This document shows positions 4,656 through 53,364 of a DNA stretch of 64,000 nucleotides, in pieces. The stretch spans positions 3,021 through 67,020 of the forward strand of contig JAZTXL010000003.1 of the NCBI GenBank assembly GCA_045636405.1. The letters are read 5' to 3'. Position 1 is the first letter of the stretch; the number at the start of each line of letters is the position of its first letter. The stretch is from Alloprevotella sp. (GTDB taxonomy: Bacteria; Bacteroidota; Bacteroidia; Bacteroidales; Bacteroidaceae). The notes beneath the pieces are model-generated. The model was given only the letters and a program-made list of their open reading frames with translations. It had not been told where the DNA came from and ran no database searches. The position numbers and the translations under genes were made by a program.

Positions 4656-4805
4656 GTGTGTGGAGATGATGGGGGATGAAAGCCCCGGCCAATCTCCCTT
4701 AATAGAGAGAGGCTTTGAGCGCTGAGGTAAGTTTGGGGAGTAAAGCATCCCGGTGGTAGAGAAAGTGGAAAACCTCACGGCCCACACCTAGCTGACCACT
4801 GCCCA

Positions 4806-4891
4806 TTTCGAAAGTCTGATCTAGGAAAAACTAGGTCTTAAGAAATTTTTCCTAGGTCTTGCGGAATTTTTCGCAGATCAGACTTTCGAAA
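4806..4891. repeat. 86-bp intergenic element with perfect 17-bp terminal inverted repeats (CTAGGAAAAA family)
   Basis: TTTCGAAAGTCTGATCT (4806-4822) / AGATCAGACTTTCGAAA (4875-4891); reverse complement matches 62773-62858 at 83/86 and also matches 43932-44002. Confidence 0.92.
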
Positions 4892-4934
4892 ACGGGGTCC
4901 GCAGGGCGGCGTTCGCAGGCGTTTATGAAATTTT

Positions 4935-5017
4935 GTAACGAGCCATGTTACAATGTGTAACTTCCCATGTTACGAAGTGTAACATGCCATGTTACAAGTT
5001 GTAACACGCCGTGTTAC
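4935..5017. repeat. Tandem array of 4 palindromic 22-bp units GTAAC-N7-GTTAC-N5
   Basis: GTAAC at 4935, 4957, 4979, 5001, each followed 7 nt later by GTTAC. Confidence 0.95.
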
Positions 5018-5040
5018 TTTTATAAGCAAAGGGAAAGGAG

Positions 5041-37240: not shown

Positions 37241-37356
37241 TGTCGCTCTGCGCCGCTCGCTGCTTTCTGGCTCTTGTGAGAACTCTTCTTGCGCCGCCTC
37301 CTTTCAGAGCAGCCTAAACTGCCAACTTTTTTCAGTACACCTCAGTTTGGCTTTTT

Positions 37357-37483
37357 GTAACAAGCCATGTTATACGATATAACGAGCCATGTTACATGTT
37401 GTAACGAGCCGCGTTACATGTTGTAACAAGCCATGTTACATGTTGTAACGAGCCATGTTACATGTTGTAACAAGCCGCGTTAC
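37357..37483. repeat. Tandem array of 6 palindromic 22-bp units GTAAC-N7-GTTAC-N5 (largest, most homogeneous)
   Basis: Unit starts at 37357, 37379 (ATAAC), 37401, 37423, 37445, 37467; consensus GTAAC RAGCCRY GTTAC ATGTT. Confidence 0.96.
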
Positions 37484-37505
37484 GGAATTTCTAAAAAGAA
37501 AATAT

Positions 37506-43879: not shown

Positions 43880-44040
43880 AGCCATTTTTTGCCTTTGTAA
43901 TTGTCTGAAAATCAGTAGGCATTTTTGGGCGTTTCGAAAGTCTGATCTACGAAAAATTCCGCAAGACCTAGGAAAAATTTCTTAAGACCTAGTTTTTCCT
44001 AGAAAGCTACTAGTTTTTCCTAGTAGCTTACTAAGAAATG
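43880..44040. repeat. Composite CTAGGAAAAA-family element; 43892-44002 is identical to 62733-62843
   Basis: Left module CCTTTGTAATTGTCTGAAAATCAGTAGGC, core TTTCGAAAGTCTGATCT..., tail GTAGCTTACTAAGAAATG; 111/111 identity by manual alignment. Confidence 0.93.
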
Positions 44041-44148
44041 GCAGGTGGTTGGCCGCTCTTCTGAAGCCGATGCCGGCATTTTCCTGCCGCCTTCTGGTGG
44101 AGCGTAGGAAATAGCCGAGTGCGTGCCGCCTTATCTGTTACTTTTGCC

Positions 44149-44182: not shown

Positions 44183-44914
44183 ATGAAGAAAATCAAGACT
44201 CTCATTCTCCTGGCGCTGCTCTGCTTTGTGAGCGGACTCTCAGCGCAGACAGTTGCCAACACCACCGCCTCCGAAGAAGAGATGGTGACCATCGAAGTAA
44301 AAGGCAGCGGTGGCTACGCCTATGTGGGCGAAGGCACAGACCGCAAGGTGAAAGTGGCCAAAGGCACCGTGGTGTATGTGAGAGCCGAAGCGCTGGAAGG
44401 CTCCGGTAAGAAATTTGCCTATTGGACCACCAAAAACACCATGGCCAGCGGTAAAGGTATCATCGAGACCAACAAAAACCCCTATGAATTTGTGGCTACG
44501 GAAAACATAGCTCTCTATGTGAACTTCGTAGCTGAGGATACCGACCTCAATGTGGTGGTAGAGGCTGCCACAACTCCCGGCGGAACAGCTTCTGTTAATG
44601 GATTCGAGTCGCTCAAGGTGGCCTTAGGCGCCGAGATTATTCTTTATGCCAGACCCGATGCCGGCTATAAATTTGTGGGTTGGCAGATGGACGACCAGGA
44701 AGAATTAGTGAGCACAGAAGCCCGCTACATCAGCGTGGCACGCGGCGCCAACAAGTTTACCGCCGTCTTTGAGAGCAAAGACCCCACCGGCGTAGGCGCC
44801 GTCACTGCACAGCCGCAGAAGAAGACCATCTACGACCTCGCCGGCCGCCGTGTCAGCAAAGCAAAAGCCCCCGGCGTTTACGTAGTGAACGGAAAGAAAA
44901 CCCTCGTGCGCTAA
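44183..44914 (+). CDS. Exported protein with two InlB-B-repeat-like (Flg_new-type) domains and a short T9SS-like tail
   Basis: 243 aa; signal peptide; two repeats with GxxFxxW and Y.FV/F.AVF; tail IYDLAGRRVSKAKAPGVYVVNGKK. Confidence 0.7.
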   Translation: MKKIKTLILLALLCFVSGLSAQTVANTTASEEEMVTIEVKGSGGYAYVGEGTDRKVKVAKGTVVYVRAEALEGSGKKFAYWTTKNTMASGKGIIETNKNPYEFVATENIALYVNFVAEDTDLNVVVEAATTPGGTASVNGFESLKVALGAEIILYARPDAGYKFVGWQMDDQEELVSTEARYISVARGANKFTAVFESKDPTGVGAVTAQPQKKTIYDLAGRRVSKAKAPGVYVVNGKKTLVR

Positions 44915-44962: not shown

Positions 44963-46459
44963 GTGAAACTCAAAGCCCCCAACACCTACGTCATTATCTT
45001 CGGCGTACTGCTTCTTTGTGCCCTCTCCACCTGGTTGGTGCCGGGAGGAAAACCTCAATCCTGGCAAGTGCTCTCAGCTCTCTACGAAGGCTTCAGCCGT
45101 CAGGCCGGCATCATTGCCTTTGTCCTGATTATCGGCGGCGCCTTCTGGTTGATAAACAGCACACGGGCCGTCGACGACGGCATTCTGCGCTTCATCGGCC
45201 GTGTGCGTCGGCTCGAGCGCCATAGCTGGGTGCGTCGTTTGGGAGTGGGCAACATTGTCATCGTCCTTGTGATGCTCCTCTTCGGACTCTTCGGTGCCGT
45301 TTTCGGCATGAGCGAAGAGACCATAGCCTTTGTGGCTGTGGTGCTGCCCTTGGCCCGCTCGCTCGGCTACGACGACTTTGTCGGCGTGTGTATGGTCTAC
45401 CTCGCCGCCCATGTGGGCTTCGCCGGCGCTATGCTCAATCCCTTTACCATAGGCATTGCGCAGGACATGTCCGGGCTGCCGCTTTTCTCCGGCATAGAAT
45501 ACCGCACGCTCTGCTGGGTGGTGGTCATGACGCTGGCCATTGCCTTTGTGCTCTGGTACGCCCACGGCCATCGCCGCGAGGTGAGCGGCGAGCAACAGCA
45601 ACCGCTGGCCGTGGAGGCCGAAGTCGCAGAAGAGCGTCCCGGCAAGCGTCCGTGGATTTGTCTCGCCTTGCTCTCGCTCGTCCTCTTGGCGTTCTGCTAC
45701 CTTTATAGCGCCGACTGCCTCATCAAGGTGGGCAGTGTGCAATGGCATGCCCCTTATCTGCTCTGGCTGGTGACTGCCGCTTTTGTGGTAGCTTCCGTAG
45801 TGGCGCTCAGAGTGTCCCACCGCATGTTCATCCTCACCCTCTTGCTCTTCTCCATCGTCTACCTCGTGCTGGGTGCTATGGGCTACGGCTGGTATCTTCC
45901 GGAGATATGCGCCCTGTTTATGGCGCTGGGCATCTGCGCCGGATTCAGTGCCGGATATAGTGCCGACAAGGTGGCGCAAGAGTTTGTGGCCGGCGCCAAG
46001 GATATCTTCTCGGCCGCCCTCATCATCGGCTTTGCCGCCGGCATTATTGTGGTGCTCGAGAACGGCGAGGTCATCGACACGATGCTGCGCTCCATGGCCG
46101 ACAGCCTTGTGGCAACGGGCCGCGAAGGCGCACTGGCCACGATGTATGGCATACAGACCGTCATCAATGTATTCATCCCCTCCGCCTCGGCCAAGGCTGC
46201 CGTCACGATGCCCATTATGGCACCATTTTCCGACATGATAGGCGTGTCGCGCCAGGCCACGGTGCTCGCTTTCCAGTTTGGCGATGGCATCACCAACATG
46301 ATTACGCCCTGCTCCGGCGTGCTGATAGCCGTCTTGTCGATAGCAAAAATCCCCTACGAGCAGTGGGTGAAGTTCATCTGGAAGTTCATTCTCCTCTTGA
46401 TGCTGGTAGGGCTGCTCCTGTTGTTGCCCACGCTTTATTTCCCCTTACCGGGATTCTAA
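44963..46459 (+). CDS. YfcC-family (DcuC/ArcD-like) membrane transporter
   Basis: 498 aa, GTG start; GAVFGMSEETIAF, GFAGAMLNPFTIGIAQ, FIPSASAKA, AFQFGDGITNMITP. Confidence 0.9.
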   Translation: MKLKAPNTYVIIFGVLLLCALSTWLVPGGKPQSWQVLSALYEGFSRQAGIIAFVLIIGGAFWLINSTRAVDDGILRFIGRVRRLERHSWVRRLGVGNIVIVLVMLLFGLFGAVFGMSEETIAFVAVVLPLARSLGYDDFVGVCMVYLAAHVGFAGAMLNPFTIGIAQDMSGLPLFSGIEYRTLCWVVVMTLAIAFVLWYAHGHRREVSGEQQQPLAVEAEVAEERPGKRPWICLALLSLVLLAFCYLYSADCLIKVGSVQWHAPYLLWLVTAAFVVASVVALRVSHRMFILTLLLFSIVYLVLGAMGYGWYLPEICALFMALGICAGFSAGYSADKVAQEFVAGAKDIFSAALIIGFAAGIIVVLENGEVIDTMLRSMADSLVATGREGALATMYGIQTVINVFIPSASAKAAVTMPIMAPFSDMIGVSRQATVLAFQFGDGITNMITPCSGVLIAVLSIAKIPYEQWVKFIWKFILLLMLVGLLLLLPTLYFPLPGF

Positions 46460-46487
46460 GAGCAAAGCCATCACTGCTTTTTATACT

Positions 46488-46587
46488 GCCATTTTTGCCT
46501 TTTGTAATCCCTTGAAAATCAATGGCTATTTTGGGGCGTTTCTTAGGTAAAAGCTAGGTGAATTTCGGTAACTACTAAGAAAATGGC
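46488..46587. repeat. Degenerate member of the intergenic element family (left module plus TTTCTTAG/CTAAGAAA core)
   Basis: GCCATTTTTGCCTTTTGTAATCCCTTGAAAATCAATGGC aligns with 43880-43931; short IR at 46539-46546 / 46575-46582. Confidence 0.7.
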
Positions 46588-46686
46588 CGTGATGTAGGGC
46601 AAAAAAGTTAATAATTATTGACTTTTTATTTTTTATAGAAAAAGAATAATTAAATTGCGCCATCTAACCTTTATAAATTAAAAGAT

Positions 46687-47880
46687 ATGGAAAAAAGAGT
46701 ATTTTTTATTATGTTTTTAATGTTTTTATCATTAGGAGTCTTTGCTCAATTATCTGTAAATTCTTCGGGTAAAGTTTCAATTTCTAATAATGGTTATAGA
46801 GTATTAGATATTAGTGGTAAAAACCAAAATATTTATGCTGTTCGTACAGGGAATGCTTCTTCTAGTGCGATAGCTACTATTACTGGTATTTGTGATAAAG
46901 ATGGAATACCTACAAGTATTGGTGTTGAAGGAACATCTGTGTCTTCTTCCTCAACCCAATACTATGATAATCTTAATCGATCCTATGGTGTTATGGGTAC
47001 AGCCGGTCATGGTGGCAATGGTTGGAATTTTGGTGTCTTTGGAAGACTGCAAAATTCCTATGGCGCAGGAATTTATGGATCAGCAATAACCAATGATTGG
47101 GGGAGAAATATTTCCGACCCTTATGCTGGCTATTTTAACGGGAATGTACAAGTGTTGGGAAATGTGCAAGCTACAGGTTCAGTAAGTGGTATTTTACTTG
47201 GTGCGAGTGTATCTCCTACATCTTCAGTTTCTATTTTGGCTGATGATATTAAATCTGAGTCCGTTTCTGATAAGATGGCAAATCTTTCTGTTGTTTCTTA
47301 TTACAAAGAACAGCCTATGGTTTTGACAGAAAACCTAAAAGAAAGTGAGGAAGTTGTTCCTAATTGGATTTCAGAAATAGAACTACAGAGTCTTTCTAAA
47401 AAACATTACGCACTTTCTGCAGAAGAATTAGAAGATGTTTTTCCGGAATTAGTATATACGAATGCAGATAAAAGTAAAAGTATCAACTATGTAGAGATGA
47501 TTCCTTTGTTGTTACAGTCAATAAATGAACTACGTAGTGAAGTTGCTAAATTGAAAGAGGAAAACAATAAGTATTCCAATAAAAAAATGGCTACAGATAT
47601 AAAAGATTGTATCGAAAGTCCTATAGAATTATCTCAAAATAAACCGAATCCTTGGAATGAAAGTACTGAAATTACGCTATCAGTTCCTGAAAGTTTCAAA
47701 AACGCTATAGTTCTGTTCTTTGATTTGAAAGGAAAACAGGTTTTTGAACAAAAGCTATATACTAGTGGAGAACAGAGTTTGAAATTCTATGCAAAAGATT
47801 TTACACCAGGAATATACATATATTCTTTAGTCGTTGATGGAAATCTTGTAGCATCGAAAAAGATGCTAGTACTAAAGTAA
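46687..47880 (+). CDS. Secreted protein with Peptidase_S74-like intramolecular chaperone domain and T9SS C-terminal sorting domain
   Basis: 397 aa; signal peptide; Gly-rich beta repeats (YGVMG, FGVFG, GIYG, YAGYFNGNV); S74-like HYALSAEELEDVFPELV...SINYVEMIPLLLQSINEL; CTD LSQNKPNPWN...PGIYIYSLVVDG...KKMLVLK. Confidence 0.8.
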   Translation: MEKRVFFIMFLMFLSLGVFAQLSVNSSGKVSISNNGYRVLDISGKNQNIYAVRTGNASSSAIATITGICDKDGIPTSIGVEGTSVSSSSTQYYDNLNRSYGVMGTAGHGGNGWNFGVFGRLQNSYGAGIYGSAITNDWGRNISDPYAGYFNGNVQVLGNVQATGSVSGILLGASVSPTSSVSILADDIKSESVSDKMANLSVVSYYKEQPMVLTENLKESEEVVPNWISEIELQSLSKKHYALSAEELEDVFPELVYTNADKSKSINYVEMIPLLLQSINELRSEVAKLKEENNKYSNKKMATDIKDCIESPIELSQNKPNPWNESTEITLSVPESFKNAIVLFFDLKGKQVFEQKLYTSGEQSLKFYAKDFTPGIYIYSLVVDGNLVASKKMLVLK

Positions 47881-47950
47881 TAATTTTTATTGTTGATTAA
47901 ATGATGTTCGAGATACTTAATGATATTGTTTAATTTAAGTATTAGGTTTT

Positions 47951-48526
47951 ATGAAACGTTTTTTATTTATATATATATTCTTATGTATAATACCAAACAT
48001 TATATATTCAAAGAATCTTGTATTTACTCCAGAATTTTCAAAAAAAATTTTTGAAAATGATACTATTTTCTTTGAGAAAAATTCTGTTCCTATAAATGGG
48101 CTATCAATAACGGCAGATATTTTTCAAAAAACAGACAGAAGTTTAATCAGACTTGTTTTAGAAGATATATATGGTAAAGAATATCTTGTTGGGGAATGTA
48201 CAAAGTTCTTGAATGAAAAAGATACAATTTTTTGGAAAGATTATTGTGAAGAAAGTTATAGATTAGAAAATGTAGTTCCAAAGTTCTTAAAGATAATTCT
48301 TGTAGATGCGAGTATATATATAAACAAAATAAATTTTTTAGAGATTACTAACAATACTTTATCTAAGGATTTTGTGGCTAGACAAGATTCTATAAGGAAT
48401 CTTCAAGTAAAAGAAAAAATTAAGTCAATAAATAACTATAATAAAAAACATGGAATTTTGTGGACGGCAGGTATCTCTGATATTGCCCTAAAATCTTATG
48501 CAGAAAAAAAGAATTATTTAATATAG
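47951..48526 (+). CDS. N-terminal (signal/pro-region) fragment of a C1 cysteine protease
   Basis: 191 aa; signal peptide, DYCEES, WTAGISDIALKSYAEKK; reading continues in the -1 frame into the next ORF. Confidence 0.6.
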   Translation: MKRFLFIYIFLCIIPNIIYSKNLVFTPEFSKKIFENDTIFFEKNSVPINGLSITADIFQKTDRSLIRLVLEDIYGKEYLVGECTKFLNEKDTIFWKDYCEESYRLENVVPKFLKIILVDASIYINKINFLEITNNTLSKDFVARQDSIRNLQVKEKIKSINNYNKKHGILWTAGISDIALKSYAEKKNYLI

Positions 48527-48636
48527 AAAGTGATAACTTTGACCTAGGGGGATTTGAATATTATAAATATGGTATTTTTAGTATTCCAACAAACCACCAG
48601 AATGTAAAAAGGAACTCAGAATCTTCTAGAATTTCT

Positions 48637-49839
48637 ATGTATGTAAAAAGTTATGATTGGCGGAATAGGCATGGAAAAAATTGGATAACTGTTCCTAAAG
48701 TACAAGTTGGTAGAACTTGCTGGGCTTTTGCTATTGCTACTTTGACAGAGAGTTATATTAATTTATTTTATAATAAACAATTAAATTATGATTTATCTGA
48801 GCAAGATCTAATAATTAATGGAGGAGTGAATTTCATACCTAGTGTAGGTGGATTTGTAACAGATGCTCTAAATTATATAAAACAAGAAGGAGTTGTTAAA
48901 GAAGAATGTTATCCATTTAGTTTTCCTAATGATTTGTTTGAAAAATGTTCTACGCCTGATGAGATTATTAAGATAGAAGATTATGAAATAAACCCGAATG
49001 TGGCTGAAGCTGAATTAAAAGAACTTCTTTTTAAATATCCTCTTTGTGTTAATCTTTTTTGGCCTGGAAATATTGGACATAGTGTACAACTTGTTGGCTA
49101 TAATCAATTAATGCTAGGAGATAGTATAATGTTAGAATCTTATGATGATACTAATCCTGAATGGACTTATATTGATGAAGATAGTGAATATTTAGGAAAA
49201 ACTTGTTGGATTATTAAGAATTCTTATGGAGAAAATTGGGGCATTGATGGATACGCTTATATCATTACTGATAATTTATTAAGATTACCGACTTCCTATT
49301 CTATTAAAGGAAGAGTTAGTAGCTTGCTTTATGGAAATAATGATGTCCTTTGTACAGATGCTGATGGTGATGGCTTTTATTTTTGGGGAGTAGGAGAAAG
49401 ACCTTTACATTGTCCTTCATGGGCTCCTGATTTTGCTGATGGTGATGATTCTAATTATGAAGTAGGTCCTATGAATGAGTATGGATATTGTATTACTATT
49501 AATCCCAATGGAAACGACAGCTTATTTTCGCCAATCTATGTTTGTGAGGATACTACTTGGACTTCATATAAATATTATCACCAAAATATAATAGTTGAAA
49601 ATTCTGCATGCTTGAATATACAATCAAATACAGATTTTTATAAAGGTACTACAATTTATTTGGCAAGTGGTTCTGTCTTGGTTATAGATGGGGCTATTCT
49701 TAACAATGTAAGAATAGAAGCTGCAAGTGGTAGTAAAATTATTATTAAGAATAATGGTGTGGTAAATTATTGTCCTACTAGTAATTTTATATTACCAATA
49801 GGGGCTGAATTAGATTTGATTCAAGGTTTAATTCATTAA
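48637..49839 (+). CDS. Catalytic fragment of a C1 (papain-like) cysteine protease
   Basis: 400 aa; YDWRNRHG, QVGRTCWAFA (Gln/Cys), DLSEQDL, GHSVQLVGY (His), WIIKNSYGENWGIDGY (Asn). Confidence 0.88.
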   Translation: MYVKSYDWRNRHGKNWITVPKVQVGRTCWAFAIATLTESYINLFYNKQLNYDLSEQDLIINGGVNFIPSVGGFVTDALNYIKQEGVVKEECYPFSFPNDLFEKCSTPDEIIKIEDYEINPNVAEAELKELLFKYPLCVNLFWPGNIGHSVQLVGYNQLMLGDSIMLESYDDTNPEWTYIDEDSEYLGKTCWIIKNSYGENWGIDGYAYIITDNLLRLPTSYSIKGRVSSLLYGNNDVLCTDADGDGFYFWGVGERPLHCPSWAPDFADGDDSNYEVGPMNEYGYCITINPNGNDSLFSPIYVCEDTTWTSYKYYHQNIIVENSACLNIQSNTDFYKGTTIYLASGSVLVIDGAILNNVRIEAASGSKIIIKNNGVVNYCPTSNFILPIGAELDLIQGLIH

Positions 49840-49851
49840 AAATAAAATTTT

Positions 49852-50655
49852 ATGGAAAAAATTTTGACTATTATCTCAATATGTTTTTGCTATTGCTTCA
49901 GTAGCTTTGCACAAACACTTCCAATACTTGAAGAAGGAAAAATATGGTATGGGGAAACGTGGGCTTATGGTTTAGAACTTAGTTCTACTTCAGAAAGAAA
50001 AGTGTGTGGAGATTCTGTCGTTAATGGAGTTTCTTATAATAAAATTTACTTGACGACAAATTTTATTGAATATGAAGAACCTATTATAACAGAAGAGGTT
50101 TTTTTGGCTCGTGAGGAGAATGGTGTGATGTATTACTATATAGGAAATAAAGAGTTTTGTTTCTTTGACTTCAATCGTAAAATCGGTGATACTTTCTTAT
50201 TTGAATATGATACCTCTCTCCTAGAATCAGAAGGAATAGAAGTGTATGGAGTTGTTGAAGATATTACTACTATAGAAACAGCAGATGGTAATACTCGAAA
50301 AGTTTATCATGTGAAGTGCTATACTAAGAAAGTTGAAGATGGAGATTTCTTAGATGACATATGGGGAGAATATATGTTTATAGAGGGCATTGGCGAGGCT
50401 CGTTATGGTATATCATTCCGTTATGGTGTGCTTATGACGGGAGGTGGTGTTCCTAAACTCATATGTGTACATGACGTGGACGGAAACCACTTGTATGGTG
50501 GTGGTGATAAGCAAGAATGTATTATTTCTTGCGTAGGTGCTCCTAAAGTTCAACAAGGATATAATTGGATTTACGATTTACAGGGGTGTAAGAGAAATTC
50601 TATTCCAATGAGAGGTATATATATACGCAACGGAAAGAAATATATATCTAAATAG
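49852..50655 (+). CDS. Hypothetical secreted protein with short T9SS-like tail
   Basis: 267 aa; signal peptide; PILEEGKIW, FDFNRKIGD, FIEGIG motifs; tail IYDLQGCK...GIYIRNGKKY. Confidence 0.7.
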   Translation: MEKILTIISICFCYCFSSFAQTLPILEEGKIWYGETWAYGLELSSTSERKVCGDSVVNGVSYNKIYLTTNFIEYEEPIITEEVFLAREENGVMYYYIGNKEFCFFDFNRKIGDTFLFEYDTSLLESEGIEVYGVVEDITTIETADGNTRKVYHVKCYTKKVEDGDFLDDIWGEYMFIEGIGEARYGISFRYGVLMTGGGVPKLICVHDVDGNHLYGGGDKQECIISCVGAPKVQQGYNWIYDLQGCKRNSIPMRGIYIRNGKKYISK

Positions 50656-50681
50656 AATTTCTTTCTTAGAGTAAGTAGATA

Positions 50682-50713
50682 AACAAATTAGCCCTCATGA
50701 GGGCTAATTTGTT
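50682..50713. terminator. Perfect 32-bp loop-less palindrome, probable bidirectional terminator at the island's right edge
   Basis: AACAAATTAGCCCTCA|TGAGGGCTAATTTGTT is exactly self-complementary; between convergent stops at 50655 and 50743. Confidence 0.8.
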
Positions 50714-50742
50714 ATATGGATAAATCAGGAGAACCTGTCTTG

Positions 50743-53364
50743 CTAGATTTTTCCGACAGTCATCTTGATGCGCTCACCAATGCCGATGGTGTAGCCCTGC
50801 GAAGAGAAGACCACGCGGTTGAAGGTATCGCCGATGATGATAACGGGCAGGTCTTCCGAGGTGGTGAGGTTGCCGCTGAAGAGGTCGCGGGCCACGTTTC
50901 CGCCGTTGTCTACGCCGAAGCAGAGCGTAGAGGGCAGGTTGGTAAACTCGCTGCGGTTCTTTTCAAAGCGCTCCCATTCTTCTTGCGTGGGGAAGAGCAG
51001 CAAGATGGGACGGCCCCAGGCTTCGAGGGCGGCGCGCTGTTTCTCCAAGTCGTGGAGAATGTGGTTGGTAGGCTCGTGGTTGGCGCGGATGAGGCCCACT
51101 ACGAAATAGCCGCGGCCGGTGGTGGCCAGCACTGACTTCTCCTTGCCGTCGGCCACATCGAGGTAGCGATTCTCAGAGTTGAACGAGCCAATCACCTGCA
51201 CCTGTTCTTTGTCTTCGCGCATGATGAGCGGTGTCTCGGTCTTCCATTTTGAGTTGGTGGGGAAGAGGGCGAGGCGCGCCAATACGCGTCCGCTGGCCAT
51301 GCGAGTGCCAGAGGTGAGCAGATAGTAACCCTCATCTACCTTGGTACCCTCCTTGAACTTGGCAGCCCAAGTATCGTCGTCCTCGTAGTTTTGCAACTGC
51401 GGCATGCCGCCTTCAAGTTTGCTCAGTGTAAAATGGTAGTAGTAGCCGGGGTCTTCCATGTACTGGCGGGGCGTATAGGCCAGCGCCAATTCGGCTTGCT
51501 CGGCTTGCGCCTTTTGAGCATCTGCTGTCTGGTCAAATGCCACTGTCTGCCATTCGCTTTGGGCGTTCATGCGGAACTGTACCTTGCCTGTCACCTCATC
51601 GATGCGGGCCGGGATGTTGAGGCTGCGTGCTGCGGCCACAAAGAGTATTCCCTTCGAGCGAACATCGGCAGTACGCAAACGGTGGGCCGACTCGGGCGAG
51701 AGACAGAGTGAGAGCGGATTCCAAGTAGCATCGGTGGCCACGTTGTTGGTAATCCATTCGGCCAAAGCGGCGGGCGCAGCCTTGAAGGCAGTCTGTTCGT
51801 CGGCCGAGAATGCGGTGCGGAAATAGGAGCGCCAGGGGGTGAGGATCTCGTTTACCACGCGAGGACAGTAGATGAAGGGGTCTGCCATAGCCACAGAGTC
51901 GACCAAGAGCAAACCGAGGTGGTTGTCGGCTACGCGGAAACTGAAGTCGCGGAGGTCTTTCTCGCTCATGCTCTCAAGAAAACTGTAGACGAAGGTGTCG
52001 GGATATTTCTCCACCAAGGCCATCAGGCTCTTGTAGTTGCCACGGCTCTTCTCCACTAAAGGAAGTACGCGCGCATAGTCGGCGCCGGTTCTCTCGCAGA
52101 AGGCCTGTACTTTTTCGGAGGTGGGGAAGGTTGAAACGTAGGCCGTGCGGATGGAGTCTTCAATGGCAAAGCGGCGCACATTCTCAGCAGCAGCCTTTGC
52201 CGACACCTTAGGCAGATTGTTCTTGCCAACGGGCGGTGTGATGTCCATCTCGCAGAAGTAAATGCCGGAAGCCTTGCGGTTGAGTGTAACCACCGGTTTT
52301 TTGTCTTTCCCCACAGAGAATTTTACGAAGCCATAGTTTGTGCCGTCCGAAGCCCAAGCCAGCATGTCGCCCAAGCCGGCTGTGATAGCGGCCTCGCCTT
52401 TGGCATCGGTGCGGGTGGTTTGTACGGTGTAGAACTCAGCGTAGTTGTAGAGCTTGAACTCAAGGTGAGCGTTGGGAACAGCATTGCCTTCCTTGTCCAC
52501 CACCTTGACGATGGTCTTCTTCACGGGGGCGTAGTTGCGTGTCACGTTGATTTCTGTGTAGCAAGGAGTGTGGCTCATCACATCCTCAGGTCCGTCGTAG
52601 CTACCAAACACTTTGGTGTGCATCAGCATACCGCGCGAAGCCGGTTGGTTGAACCAGCCCAGGTTGAGAACGGGCTCGGGCTCGCAGGCGCCTAGGAAAT
52701 ACCATTTGCCATCTATCCAGGCCTCCACCCAAGCGTGGTTGTCGTCGGTGTGAGCCCAGCGCGGAGTGTAAACCTGGCGGGCGGGAATGCCGATGGTGCG
52801 CAGCGCAGCCACGGTAAAGGTTGACTCTTCGCCGCAGCGTCCTGTGGCGGTGCGCATGCTGGCCAGCGGTGCCGAGGTGCGGCTGTCTGAGGGCTTGTAA
52901 GTAACATATTCATGGCACCAGTGGTTTACCTCGAGTGCCGCCTCTTTCATGGACAAGCCCTCCACGCGCTGCTTCAATTCCTCGTAGCACACATCGCGGA
53001 AGTCATCCAGGTTTTCGTTGTTCACACGTGGCGGAAGCACGAAGTGAAGCCATTCGCGCATGGGCACCTTCTTGCCCCACGCCATTTCCTTACGTGCTCG
53101 CAAGGCATAGTCGGCTTGTTGCAAGAAGTACTCTGTCGAGTAGTCGGCCAAGTCGGGCCAAGCCATGTAGGCGTATAGGAATTCCAGCGCCTCGCGTTGC
53201 TCGGCACTGAGCTTCATTTTGTCAAGCTGCGCCGGAATGTTGGCGGGCGATTTTGCAAAGCGCGCTTCAAAGTCGCGGCTGATTTTTTCAAAGCGATCGG
53301 CACTTGCGGTCCAGCAACTCATGGCTGCCAGCAAGCAAGCGGCTGTCAGTTTTTTCAGTTTCAT
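50743..53364 (-). CDS. Large transglutaminase-like domain protein (two cores) with carboxypeptidase-regulatory-like middle domain
   Basis: 873 aa; signal peptide; FVLPPRVNNE, TGRCGEEST, DNHAWVEAWIDGKW; second core ILFVAAARSLNIPARID without Cys. Confidence 0.85.
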   Translation of the reverse strand: MKLKKLTAACLLAAMSCWTASADRFEKISRDFEARFAKSPANIPAQLDKMKLSAEQREALEFLYAYMAWPDLADYSTEYFLQQADYALRARKEMAWGKKVPMREWLHFVLPPRVNNENLDDFRDVCYEELKQRVEGLSMKEAALEVNHWCHEYVTYKPSDSRTSAPLASMRTATGRCGEESTFTVAALRTIGIPARQVYTPRWAHTDDNHAWVEAWIDGKWYFLGACEPEPVLNLGWFNQPASRGMLMHTKVFGSYDGPEDVMSHTPCYTEINVTRNYAPVKKTIVKVVDKEGNAVPNAHLEFKLYNYAEFYTVQTTRTDAKGEAAITAGLGDMLAWASDGTNYGFVKFSVGKDKKPVVTLNRKASGIYFCEMDITPPVGKNNLPKVSAKAAAENVRRFAIEDSIRTAYVSTFPTSEKVQAFCERTGADYARVLPLVEKSRGNYKSLMALVEKYPDTFVYSFLESMSEKDLRDFSFRVADNHLGLLLVDSVAMADPFIYCPRVVNEILTPWRSYFRTAFSADEQTAFKAAPAALAEWITNNVATDATWNPLSLCLSPESAHRLRTADVRSKGILFVAAARSLNIPARIDEVTGKVQFRMNAQSEWQTVAFDQTADAQKAQAEQAELALAYTPRQYMEDPGYYYHFTLSKLEGGMPQLQNYEDDDTWAAKFKEGTKVDEGYYLLTSGTRMASGRVLARLALFPTNSKWKTETPLIMREDKEQVQVIGSFNSENRYLDVADGKEKSVLATTGRGYFVVGLIRANHEPTNHILHDLEKQRAALEAWGRPILLLFPTQEEWERFEKNRSEFTNLPSTLCFGVDNGGNVARDLFSGNLTTSEDLPVIIIGDTFNRVVFSSQGYTIGIGERIKMTVGKI

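What the first reader, a model, noticed from the sequence alone, without database searches (positions are those of the whole stretch)
46600..50715. Low-GC secreted three-gene module: S74-chaperone/T9SS protein, papain-like protease and unknown partner
The island is sharply AT-rich, co-oriented and lacks mobility genes; it is bounded by a repeat-family element on the left and a perfect palindrome on the right. All three products have signal peptides. Peptidase_S74 domains are trimerisation chaperones of phage tailspike and fibre beta-helices (established). Here one follows Gly-rich beta repeats and is followed by a coiled coil and a T9SS CTD, i.e. a phage-fibre-like fold routed through T9SS. 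The canonical SDxRxK autocleavage motif looks degenerate. Inference: a horizontally exchanged surface protease system (trimeric fibre or scaffold, protease, and accessory or inhibitor protein) that I do not know to be described.
Basis: partly seen in the sequence, partly recalled or inferred. Interest (0 to 1): 0.66.

Follow-up and report, generated by a model that had tools for sequence, protein, structure and literature searches.

The report
Fibre–protease–partner cassette of gut Bacteroidales
The AT-rich island is one copy of a widespread, horizontally exchanged three-gene operon of gut and rumen Bacteroidales, apparently undescribed, in which a surface protein resembling a phage tail fibre is followed by a secreted protease whose catalytic type is freely swapped and by a small secreted partner protein.

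Summary
The island is real. GC is 0.24-0.39 against 0.55-0.61 in the flanks. It lies between a host repeat element and a perfect 32-nt palindrome. Conspecific contigs have an empty site.

It holds three co-oriented genes:
- A is a T9SS-sorted protein related to phage tail fibres.
- B is a pre-pro papain-family protease. In this window only, it is split by a 1-nt deletion in an A8 run.
- C is a secreted beta-rich protein with no annotation.

Pfam's S74 model misses A (E 0.22). Relatives, PHROG tail-fibre profiles, viral fold matches and 155 viral loci support a remote S74/intramolecular-chaperone domain. It lacks the Ser-Lys dyad.

The proposed census came out positive and broader than expected:
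- 60 of 69 A-family loci have a protease directly downstream: C25, C1, S8, S1, M12B or M6.
- These proteases end in a shared C-terminal element.
- 44 of 53 B-family loci have A upstream, and 42 of 61 have C downstream.
- A proteins 61-69% identical pair with different protease classes.

Most likely this is a mobile secreted-protease cassette with a surface fibre and a cognate binder. The closest known analogue is the Tannerella KLIKK/potempin system. The roles of the parts are inferred, not shown.

The parts
46487..46585 (.). Copy of a multi-copy intergenic repeat family of the host genome. It forms the left border of the island and is also present in the empty site.
   Evidence: It aligns with window 43880-44060, window 54520-54740 and the empty-site spacer of L086. 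Depth rises 3-5 fold and contigs break here in four runs.
46600..46686 (+). AT-rich leader of gene A; presumed promoter region of the operon (inferred).
   Evidence: GC falls to about 0.28. The sigma-70 consensus scan found no more sites than in shuffled sequence, and Bacteroidetes promoters are not covered by the tool.
46687..47880 (+). Gene A, 397 aa: Sec signal peptide, Gly-rich fibre region, S74/ICA-like domain without the catalytic dyad, and a T9SS type A sorting domain.
46774..47241 (+). A residues about 30-185: Gly-rich repeats (GVxGxAG, NYGVFG, GAGIYG, YAGYFNGNV), similar to phage tail-fibre shafts.
   Evidence: PHROG tail-fibre and tail-protein profiles phrog_1330 and phrog_1980 align from residues 32-34 onward. 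Gly, Tyr and Asn columns are invariant. The monomer AlphaFold model is poor here (pLDDT below 50).
47254..47586 (+). A residues about 190-300: domain related to the intramolecular chaperone (Peptidase_S74/ICA) of tail fibres. The Ser-Lys dyad is not conserved.
   Evidence: PF13884 E 0.22 here, but 6 of 43 relatives hit it, best 3.2e-6. The E9-3 homologue carries PF13884. The family profile hits phage S16 gp37 (6f45) at E 0.01. Foldseek matches the MyRF ICA domain 7dc3, TM 0.53-0.55. 82 BFVD matches at E<=1e-3, mostly S74, ICA or tail-fibre proteins. 155 viral loci match residues about 235-295. Dyad absent.
47644..47868 (+). A residues 320-394: T9SS type A C-terminal sorting domain.
   Evidence: PF18962 E 2e-6, 28.4 bits (cut-off 27). 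TIGR04183 28.5 bits (cut-off 23). Foldseek matches the PorU C-terminal domain and substrate C-terminal domains in T9SS translocon structures.
47951..49839 (+). Gene B: pre-pro papain-family (C1A) peptidase, 628 aa when intact. Here it is a frameshifted gene read as two ORFs, 47951-48526 and 48637-49839.
48504..48510 (+). A7 homopolymer, the site of the 1-nt deletion that breaks gene B. All ten other assemblies have A8.
   Evidence: Six contigs L001-L006. Runs X1, X2, X5 and X8 all show an extra A after 48503.
48646..49272 (+). C1 catalytic domain. Gln, Cys (QVGRTCWAF), His (GHSVQLVGY) and Asn (IKNSYG) are all present.
   Evidence: PF00112 E 5e-21. Q251, C256 and H376 are invariant in 36 relatives. 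Closest solved structures are dipeptidyl peptidase 1 and cathepsins L and K, E 1e-34 to 1e-27.
49483..49836 (+). C-terminal domain of B, with beta-helix-like sequence repeats. Its last ~40 residues are shared by the cassette proteases of all catalytic classes.
   Evidence: An iterated profile finds it at the C-terminus of 49 proteases of classes C1, C25, S1, S8 and M12B. hhalign between the two subgroups gives probability 94.4%, E 8.6e-8. One subgroup hits NCBIfam NF045639, the '3-coathanger stack' domain.
49852..50655 (+). Gene C, 267 aa: signal peptide, a beta-rich domain of about 200 aa with no Pfam family, and a short C-terminal tag.
50572..50652 (+). C-terminal tag YDLQGCKRNSIPMRGIYIRNGKKYISK. 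The same tag ends two unrelated secreted proteins of the window.
   Evidence: Regex scan. The C-family profile's tag region matches the C-terminus of a rumen arabinanase, 4kca, E 4.5e-8.
50682..50713 (.). Perfect 32-nt palindrome; a hairpin that could terminate transcription from both directions, between convergent genes.

Best explanation
The island is a mobile, self-contained operon of a family common in Bacteroidales: fibre (A), protease (B), partner (C).

Shown:
- A has a Sec signal and a T9SS sorting domain.
- Residues about 30-300 of A are homologous to the distal part of phage tail fibres, including their terminal intramolecular chaperone. That domain lacks the Ser-Lys dyad.
- B is a pre-pro C1A peptidase with an intact catalytic set in its reading frame.
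- Across the family the protease between A and C is exchanged among C25, C1, S8, S1, M12B and M6 types. The C-terminal element of the protease and the neighbouring genes are kept.
- The cassette is AT-rich and present or absent within a species.

Inferred:
- A folds in the periplasm into a trimeric fibre, as tail fibres with this domain do. Because the chaperone is not cut off, it keeps the fibre joined to the sorting domain.
- T9SS exports the fibre and anchors it on the cell surface or on vesicles.
- The protease is exported as a zymogen. It is held at or delivered to the surface through its shared C-terminal element, by binding A or C.
- C is a cognate binder that keeps the protease in check on the producer, as potempins do for KLIKK peptidases. 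C evolves fast, tracks the protease class and is often duplicated.
- The pay-off is degradation of dietary, host or competitor proteins.

In this particular genome the protease gene is switched off by a frameshift in an A8 tract. This may be a mutation, a phase-off state or an assembly error.
For: - Association: 60 of 69 evaluable A-family loci from species-representative genomes have a protease gene directly downstream on the same strand, often with overlapping or near-touching stop and start codons.
- Reverse direction: A lies upstream of 44 of 53 B-family loci, and C downstream of 42 of 61.
- A cultured isolate, Prevotella sp. E9-3, has the order S74+Por_Secre_tail gene, C1 peptidase gene, then two unannotated genes.
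- Modularity: A proteins 61-69% identical sit next to different protease classes. The C-terminal element is shared across classes.
- C follows protease class in 25 of 32 nearest-neighbour pairs, against 16 by chance. It occurs in 1-3 tandem copies.
- A is related to tail fibres and S74. The dyad is absent. The sorting domain is present.
- B's catalytic residues are conserved.
- Mobility: empty site, step in identity, AT-richness.
- Precedent for proteases of disparate classes, each with a linked beta-barrel inhibitor, in a T9SS bacterium: PMC9890683.
Against: - No interaction, localisation, expression or activity data exist.
- B has no recognisable T9SS sorting domain, so its passage across the outer membrane is unexplained.
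- The fold of C is only weakly similar to calycin- or YmcC-like beta proteins (TM<=0.39). Its domain also occurs in thousands of other secreted proteins, in up to 9 copies. It may therefore be a general binding module rather than an inhibitor.
- One C family following proteases of different chemistries argues against an active-site-specific inhibitor.
- Trimerisation of A is inferred from homology alone; the monomer model of the fibre region is poor.
- A-family genes also occur in Bacteroides and Phocaeicola. From memory, these genera usually lack T9SS; I did not check this.
Confidence: 0.45

Rival explanations
1. Inter-bacterial antagonism module: a T9SS counterpart of the T6SS VgrG-effector-immunity islands. 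The fibre A is carrier and target-recognition device. The protease, which lacks a sorting domain, rides on A through its shared C-terminal element. C is the immunity protein.
For: - A variable enzymatic module sits in a constant frame, with swaps between close relatives.
- The downstream partner evolves fast and is often arrayed in tandem.
- Presence or absence varies within a species, exchange is recent, and the cassette is AT-rich.
- Some genomes carry several cassettes: three loci from one Prevotella MAG (L041, L054, L079), and two in tandem in L050.
- The carrier is derived from a phage fibre.
Against: - Pro-domain-bearing C25, S8, S1, C1 and M12B endopeptidases are typical digestive or virulence enzymes, not known antibacterial effectors.
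- C carries a signal peptide and a secretion-type tag and belongs to a very large general domain family.
- Hitch-hiking through T9SS is not an established mechanism, as far as I know.
Confidence: 0.15
2. Dedicated maturation protease. Because the S74-like domain of A has lost its self-cleaving dyad, the neighbouring protease cuts A in trans to release or activate the fibre. C is a further substrate or assembly factor.
For: The dyad is absent throughout the family. A and the protease are tightly coupled, with gaps of -4 to +12 nt in many loci.
Against: - Close A relatives pair with proteases of unrelated chemistry and specificity, which is unusual for a dedicated processing enzyme.
- The proteases carry class-specific pro-domains and large extra domains (Propeptide_C25, FG-GAP, a Fervidolysin-like pro-domain), typical of extracellular enzymes.
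- Cutting between the fibre and the sorting domain before export would uncouple A from T9SS.
Confidence: 0.1
3. The fibre is an adhesin for food particles or host surfaces and works independently of the protease. The genes merely travel together as accessory cargo, with no physical or regulatory coupling beyond co-transcription.
For: No interaction evidence exists. The domain of C is common outside cassettes.
Against: Linkage of 83-87% in both directions across many families of Bacteroidales, maintained despite repeated protease swaps, is hard to keep without selection on the combination.
Confidence: 0.2
4. Prophage remnant: a decayed tail-fibre module with passenger genes.
For: A matches phage tail-fibre profiles. 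One full-length relative lies on a contig catalogued as viral (L172).
Against: - There are no other phage genes in the island or in the related loci examined.
- A has a Sec signal peptide and a T9SS sorting domain, which virion proteins do not need.
- Of 80 viral loci, 79 match only part of A, mostly residues about 235-295 and in a few cases as far back as residue ~53.
- L172 itself carries the same A-B-C cassette.
Confidence: 0.03

Closest known systems
KLIKK peptidase / potempin system of Tannerella forsythia (PMC9890683; PMC4404884)
   Same: It is in a T9SS-bearing member of Bacteroidales. Several secreted pro-peptidases of disparate catalytic classes share one C-terminal domain. Each is genetically linked and co-transcribed with a small secreted beta-barrel protein. 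The arrays are strain-variable.
   Different: In KLIKK the shared C-terminal domain is a canonical T9SS sorting domain ending in KLIKK; B has none. Potempins are 98-132-residue lipoproteins encoded upstream, whereas C is 267 aa, encoded downstream, and has no lipobox. KLIKK loci have no fibre gene. No sequence relationship was seen. Classes C1 and C25 are not among the KLIKK enzymes.
Phage tail fibres and tailspikes with a C-terminal intramolecular chaperone (Peptidase_S74; e.g. K1F endosialidase, T5 pb1, S16 gp37) and the eukaryotic MyRF ICA domain
   Same: A shares the Gly-rich shaft followed by the chaperone-like domain with its terminal helix. Support comes from profile and fold matches.
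   Different: The Ser-Lys dyad is absent. The domain is internal, followed by a T9SS sorting domain. The protein has a signal peptide and is chromosomal, not part of a virion.
T9SS cargo proteases such as the gingipains (Peptidase_C25) of Porphyromonas gingivalis
   Same: C25 enzymes with Propeptide_C25 are the commonest protease type in the cassette family. The cellular setting is the same.
   Different: Gingipains carry their own sorting domain and are not preceded by a fibre gene. The cassette proteases end in a '3-coathanger'-like element instead.
T6SS vgrG-effector-immunity islands
   Same: The gene order is a phage-derived trimeric carrier, then an effector with exchangeable enzymatic module and a conserved docking part, then one or several small partner genes. 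These islands are mobile and strain-variable.
   Different: The secretion system is different. No homology was found. An effector or immunity role is untested here.
C10 protease / staphostatin-like inhibitor pairs of Bacteroides fragilis (recalled from memory, not checked here)
   Same: A secreted cysteine protease is co-transcribed with a small beta-barrel binding protein in gut Bacteroidales.
   Different: The protease family is different. There is no fibre gene and no class swapping.

Membership tests
Peptidase_S74 / intramolecular chaperone auto-processing domain (PF13884) | Match to the family HMM above the gathering score | tested here: not met
   Window protein A: E 0.22, 12.3 bits against a cut-off of 22, profile positions 30-58 only. 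Six of 43 relatives match, best E 3.2e-6. The Prevotella sp. E9-3 homologue has PF13884 on record.
Peptidase_S74 / intramolecular chaperone auto-processing domain (PF13884) | Catalytic Ser-Lys dyad in the S-D-x-R-x-K motif | tested here: not met
   Among 117 relatives Ser194 is present in 46%, and position 199 is Gly or Asn. With Ser192 as the alternative nucleophile, position 197 is Leu, Met or Ile.
Peptidase_S74 / intramolecular chaperone auto-processing domain (PF13884) | Lies at the C-terminal end of a fibre or spike region and is homologous to phage fibre termini | tested here: met
   Ten PHROG tail, tail-fibre or baseplate families match, most of them at the end of their own profile, best E 1.5e-9. 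155 viral loci match residues about 235-295. The PDB profile hit is the C-terminus of phage S16 gp37. In A, however, it is followed by a sorting domain.
Peptidase_S74 / intramolecular chaperone auto-processing domain (PF13884) | Fold of the chaperone domain | tested here: inconclusive
   Foldseek gives MyRF ICA 7dc3 at E 2.8e-3, TM 0.53-0.55 on the target, and 82 BFVD matches at E<=1e-3, dominated by S74/ICA proteins. The model is a monomer with pLDDT 70-83 in this region and rmsd values are high.
Peptidase_S74 / intramolecular chaperone auto-processing domain (PF13884) | Promotes trimerisation and is released by self-cleavage | not testable with these tools
   This needs multimer modelling or protein chemistry.
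T9SS type A cargo (PF18962 / TIGR04183) | C-terminal sorting domain above the curated cut-off, at the extreme C-terminus | tested here: met
   Residues 320-394 of 397: 28.4 bits (cut-off 27) and 28.5 bits (cut-off 23). 42 of 43 relatives match.
T9SS type A cargo (PF18962 / TIGR04183) | N-terminal Sec signal peptide | tested here: met
   By inspection of the sequence only: MEKRVFFIMFLMFLSLGVFA|QLSV. The Ala-Gln junction is conserved in the family.
T9SS type A cargo (PF18962 / TIGR04183) | Host encodes a T9SS | not tested
   No T9SS component was looked for in the window or genome.
Papain family, Peptidase_C1 (PF00112) | HMM match and the catalytic Gln, Cys, His, Asn | tested here: met
   76.2 bits (cut-off 20.7). 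Q251, C256 and H376 are invariant in 36 relatives. The Asn of 'KNSYG' is present here and is Asp in a few relatives.
Papain family, Peptidase_C1 (PF00112) | Intact reading frame in this window | tested here: not met
   A7 instead of A8 at 48504-48510 splits the gene.
Papain family, Peptidase_C1 (PF00112) | Cathepsin-type I29 pro-peptide | tested here: inconclusive
   There is no Pfam hit in residues 1-191. The stretch 'INxYNxxxxxLWRAGVTxxSLxxYEEKK' resembles the I29 core by eye only.
KLIKK peptidase / potempin system | Peptidases of disparate catalytic classes in one shared frame | tested here: met
   C25, C1, S8, S1, M12B and M6 enzymes occur behind A-family genes, with a shared C-terminal element.
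KLIKK peptidase / potempin system | The shared C-terminal domain is a T9SS sorting domain ending in KLIKK | tested here: not met
   B has no Por_Secre_tail or TIGR04183 match and ends in ...LIQGLIH.
KLIKK peptidase / potempin system | A 98-132-residue lipoprotein inhibitor encoded immediately upstream | tested here: not met
   The upstream gene is the 397-aa fibre. The small partner lies downstream, is 267 aa, and shows a signal-peptidase-I type junction.
KLIKK peptidase / potempin system | The partner inhibits the linked peptidase | not testable with these tools
   This needs enzymology.

The most novel reading that the evidence does not exclude
The cassette is a carrier-effector-immunity system for the type IX secretion pathway. 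Proteases without a sorting domain dock through their shared '3-coathanger'-like C-terminus onto a trimeric fibre derived from a phage tail fibre. The fibre's non-cleaving chaperone domain ties it to a T9SS sorting domain. The proteases would thus be exported and displayed by hitch-hiking. The fast-evolving downstream protein protects the producer. This would be the first modular, exchangeable effector-delivery frame described for T9SS, and a new use for the S74 domain.
Probability: 0.13. Interest if true: 0.9.

Novelty: new variant of a known kind. Interest (0 to 1): 0.66.

Why it matters
Proteolysis by Prevotella and related Bacteroidales drives nitrogen turnover in the rumen and contributes to virulence in the mouth.

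Some genomes hold several copies. Every gene in it is currently annotated only as 'T9SS type A sorting domain-containing protein', 'C1 family peptidase' or 'hypothetical'.

If the three products work together, the cassette would explain three things:
- how proteases without a sorting signal reach the surface;
- why one frame tolerates six catalytic chemistries;
- what a tail-fibre chaperone domain does in a cellular secreted protein.

It also offers a natural plug-in site for displaying enzymes on Bacteroidales cells.

Tried and rejected
- Direct Pfam and NCBIfam scans for S74 in protein A gave nothing above threshold. I kept the assignment only as remote homology.
- PADLOC gave one weak LmuB coiled-coil match, which I take as noise. 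A defence system is rejected.
L27 clusters at 90% with Alloprevotella MAG proteins, and the island occurs mainly in bovine gut metagenomes.
- The search for RNA runs returned only runs of unknown type kept as contigs, so co-expression could not be assessed.
- The Foldseek search of the C model gave only weak matches to YmcC-like, putative-lipoprotein and lipocalin structures (TM<=0.39). The profile search of the PDB hit only the C-terminal tag. No fold assignment is made.
- The sigma-70 promoter and terminator scan found no more than in shuffled sequence, and it missed the palindrome because there is no T-run.
- Literature searches for T9SS plus intramolecular chaperone or tail fibre, for the 3-coathanger domain, and for polymorphic T9SS proteases found nothing on this cassette.
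- The prophage-remnant reading is rejected.
- I considered treating the 191-aa ORF as a separate fourth gene. I rejected this because the +1 frame continues without a stop into the C1 ORF and every relative has a single gene.

Full report
**What is in the sequence**

Between 46450 and 50700 the GC content drops to 0.24-0.39. It is 0.55-0.615 in the DcuC-family transporter gene on the left (44963-46459) and in the transglutaminase-like gene on the right (50743-53364, minus strand).

The island holds only + strand ORFs:
- A: 46687-47880, 397 aa.
- Two ORFs, 47951-48526 (191 aa) and 48637-49839 (400 aa).
- C: 49852-50655, 267 aa.

The two middle ORFs are one gene. The 191-aa ORF stops just after an A7 run, and the +1 frame reads on without a stop into the 400-aa ORF. 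Six closely related contigs carry A8 and a single 628-aa gene. Contigs from four independent metagenome runs also have the extra A. So the island has three genes, and in this record the protease gene is broken. I cannot tell whether this is a real mutation, a phase-off state or an assembly error. The flanking genes of the window are intact.

**Borders and mobility**

The left spacer contains a degenerate copy (46487-46585) of an intergenic repeat found elsewhere in the window. Depth rises 3-5 fold there, and contigs of four runs break there.

The right border is a perfect 32-nt palindrome, 50682-50713. It folds with a 14-bp stem, dG -21 kcal/mol, z -3.85.

Contigs L086-L089 have the transporter gene followed after 261 bp by the transglutaminase-like gene, with no island. 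Their flanks are 97-98% identical to those of island-bearing L002. The island replaces that spacer exactly from stop codon to stop codon.

Between the window and L002 the flanks are 82-92% identical but the island is 96-100% identical. The step falls right at the island edges, and there are two internal patches of 90-93%. This shows presence/absence polymorphism within a species and recent exchange between diverged lineages. The sharpness of the step is unexplained. The possibilities are recombination within the cassette between lineages that both already had it, a role for the repeat element, or assembly chimerism.

The island occurs mainly in bovine gut metagenomes. The organism is an uncultured member of Bacteroidales. 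Its L27 protein clusters at 90% with Alloprevotella MAG proteins.

**Gene A**

The T9SS type A sorting domain at residues 320-394 passes both curated cut-offs. It matches the PorU C-terminal domain and the substrate C-terminal domains in solved translocon complexes.

Pfam Peptidase_S74 is not hit: E 0.22, 12.3 bits against 22. The homology is nevertheless supported by independent lines:
- 6 of 43 relatives hit PF13884, best E 3.2e-6.
- The homologue in the isolate Prevotella sp. E9-3 has PF13884 plus PF18962 on record.
- Ten PHROG tail-fibre, tail or baseplate families match. Most matches end at the last positions of the PHROG profile. Two of them start at A residues 32-34, so the Gly-rich N-terminal part is fibre-like as well.
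- A profile of residues 188-305 finds only phage fibre C-termini in the PDB: S16 gp37 (6f45) at E 0.01.
- 155 viral loci match, mostly over residues about 235-295, at 38-52% identity in the best cases.
- Foldseek finds the MyRF ICA domain in the PDB (TM 0.53-0.55) and 82 BFVD matches at E<=1e-3, dominated by S74, ICA and tail-fibre proteins.

The catalytic Ser-Lys dyad is not conserved. The family is therefore best described as a tail-fibre end with a non-cleaving chaperone-like domain, joined to a T9SS sorting domain. The predicted helix 268-298 belongs to that domain.

The family has more than 765 members. Those that carry a name are called only 'T9SS type A sorting domain-containing protein' or 'hypothetical protein'.

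**Gene B**

When intact, B consists of:
- a signal peptide;
- an N-terminal region of about 200 residues with no Pfam match;
- a C1A catalytic domain with Gln, Cys, His and Asn conserved, closest to dipeptidyl peptidase 1 and cathepsins among solved structures;
- a DxDxDG-rich linker;
- a C-terminal domain of about 120 residues.

It has no T9SS sorting domain. Full-length relatives number more than 828.

**Gene C**

C has a signal peptide, a beta-rich domain of about 200 residues and a short C-terminal tag. Word-based search finds only 10 relatives. A profile search finds 3,789 cluster representatives at E<=1e-10, with 1-9 copies of the domain per protein. None of seven multi-copy relatives scanned has a Pfam family covering this domain.

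The model has pLDDT 76. It resembles YmcC-like, putative-lipoprotein and lipocalin structures only weakly.

The tag also ends two unrelated secreted proteins of the window and a rumen arabinanase in the PDB.

**The census**

Starting from the A family, 79 loci were fetched from species-representative genomes. They come from Prevotella, Xylanibacter, Alloprevotella, Paraprevotella, Bacteroides, Phocaeicola, Paludibacteraceae, Dysgonomonadaceae, Tannerella, Mariniphaga and many rumen MAGs.

Of the 69 loci with at least 2.5 kb downstream, 60 have a protease gene directly after A on the same strand. Intergenic gaps are often -4 to +12 nt.

| Protease class after A | Loci |
|---|---|
| C25, about 770 aa | 28 |
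| C25 with FG-GAP repeats, about 1580 aa | 10 |
| C1 | 10 |
| S8 | 8 |
| S1 | 5 |
| M12B | 1 |
| M6 | 1 |

Classes were assigned from Pfam scans of representatives and similarity to them. The table counts all 63 loci that could be given a class, including some with less than 2.5 kb downstream.

One to three C-like genes usually follow the protease.

Starting from the B family in metagenomes, A lies upstream in 44 of 53 evaluable loci and C downstream in 42 of 61.

The pro-regions are class-specific, for example Propeptide_C25 and a Fervidolysin-like pro-domain. An iterated profile of the extreme C-terminus, however, finds the same element in 49 proteases of five classes and nowhere else in these loci. 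The two subgroups align with 94% hhalign probability. One subgroup matches NCBIfam NF045639, the '3-coathanger stack' domain.

A proteins that are 61-69% identical sit next to different protease classes. The nearest A neighbour has the same class in 38 of 61 cases, against 25 by chance. C tracks protease class more closely: 25 of 32, against 16 by chance.

The cassettes are AT-rich relative to their flanks in 44 of 52 loci. Some genomes hold several cassettes.

**Interpretation**

What is conserved is a frame: fibre gene, a protease of any chemistry ending in a common element, then partner gene. That frame moves horizontally.

My preferred reading (confidence 0.45) is a secreted or surface protease cassette:
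- A forms a surface-anchored fibre.
- The protease is a zymogen that is positioned through its shared C-terminal element.
- C is a cognate binder that restrains or escorts the protease.

The closest described system is the KLIKK peptidase/potempin network of Tannerella forsythia (PMC9890683). It shares the disparate catalytic classes, a common C-terminal domain and linked beta-barrel partners. This cassette fails three of that system's defining features: no sorting domain on the protease, no upstream lipoprotein, and no KLIKK tail. It also adds the fibre gene.

The rivals are:
- a T9SS carrier-effector-immunity module for antagonism (0.15);
- trans-processing of A by the protease (0.10);
- co-travelling but functionally independent genes (0.20);
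- a prophage remnant (0.03).

All functional roles are inferred. None could be tested with the tools at hand.

**Novelty**

Four literature searches found no description of this gene combination. I rate it a new variant of known kinds (T9SS cargo, protease-plus-binder operons, S74-bearing fibres) with a well-supported genomic signature and an open mechanism.

Noticed in passing
window 4908-5039, 25388-25480, 37330-37505, 58984-59071: Arrays of 3-7 tandem copies of a 22-nt unit (about ATGTTGTAACGAGCCATGTTAC) built around GTAAC...GTTAC palindromes. They occur in both orientations, at four intergenic places (families D1 and I2-I14).
   Followed up: no
window 4803-4891, 19326-19419, 25630-25716, 43892-44040, 54405-54722, 62733-62861 (and degenerate at 46487-46585): An intergenic repeat family built of TTTTCCTAG / CTAGGAAAAA modules, up to 99-100% identical between copies. 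Metagenome contigs break at the copy next to the island, and depth rises 3-5 fold there.
   Followed up: partly
window 44831-44914 (+), 50572-50652 (+), 54790-54873 (-): Three unrelated secreted proteins end in the same ~27-residue tag, YDLxGR(6-10 aa)G[IV]Y[IV]xxGKKxxx. They are the 243-aa Flg_new_2 protein, gene C and a 1364-aa GH20 enzyme. Pfam does not call the tag Por_Secre_tail. It also matches the C-terminus of a rumen arabinanase in the PDB (4kca, E 4.5e-8). It may be a short sorting signal.
   Followed up: partly
window 46460 and ~50656 (compared with L002): Nucleotide identity steps from 85-93% to 98-100% exactly at the island edges, with no donor tract extending into the flanks. Two internal patches of 90-93% lie at 47811-48107 and 50207-50356. 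The mechanism is unresolved, and assembly chimerism is not excluded.
   Followed up: partly
L001 8277-9773 and L003 8278-9773: In two related metagenome contigs the DcuC-family transporter gene next to the island is itself split into two ORFs. Broken genes are therefore not unique to this window's assembly.
   Followed up: no
L031 (Bacteroides salyersiae DSM 18765), L024, L026, L029 (Phocaeicola MAGs): A-family genes with a T9SS sorting domain, followed by C25 or C1 proteases, occur in genera that (from memory) usually lack a T9SS. I did not check whether these genomes encode one.
   Followed up: no
L017, L024, L028, L031, L032, L036, L037, L043: In the cassettes with the 1580-aa C25+FG-GAP protease, an extra gene sits between A and the protease. 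It is either an Acyl_transf_3 membrane acyltransferase (about 329 aa) or a protein of about 390 aa with a weak BspA-type LRR match.
   Followed up: partly
L078 3781-9861: One A-family gene is followed, after a 338-nt gap, not by a protease but by a 2027-aa protein with SpvB, TcdB-middle, FG-GAP and RHS-repeat domains, that is, a polymorphic-toxin-type protein.
   Followed up: no
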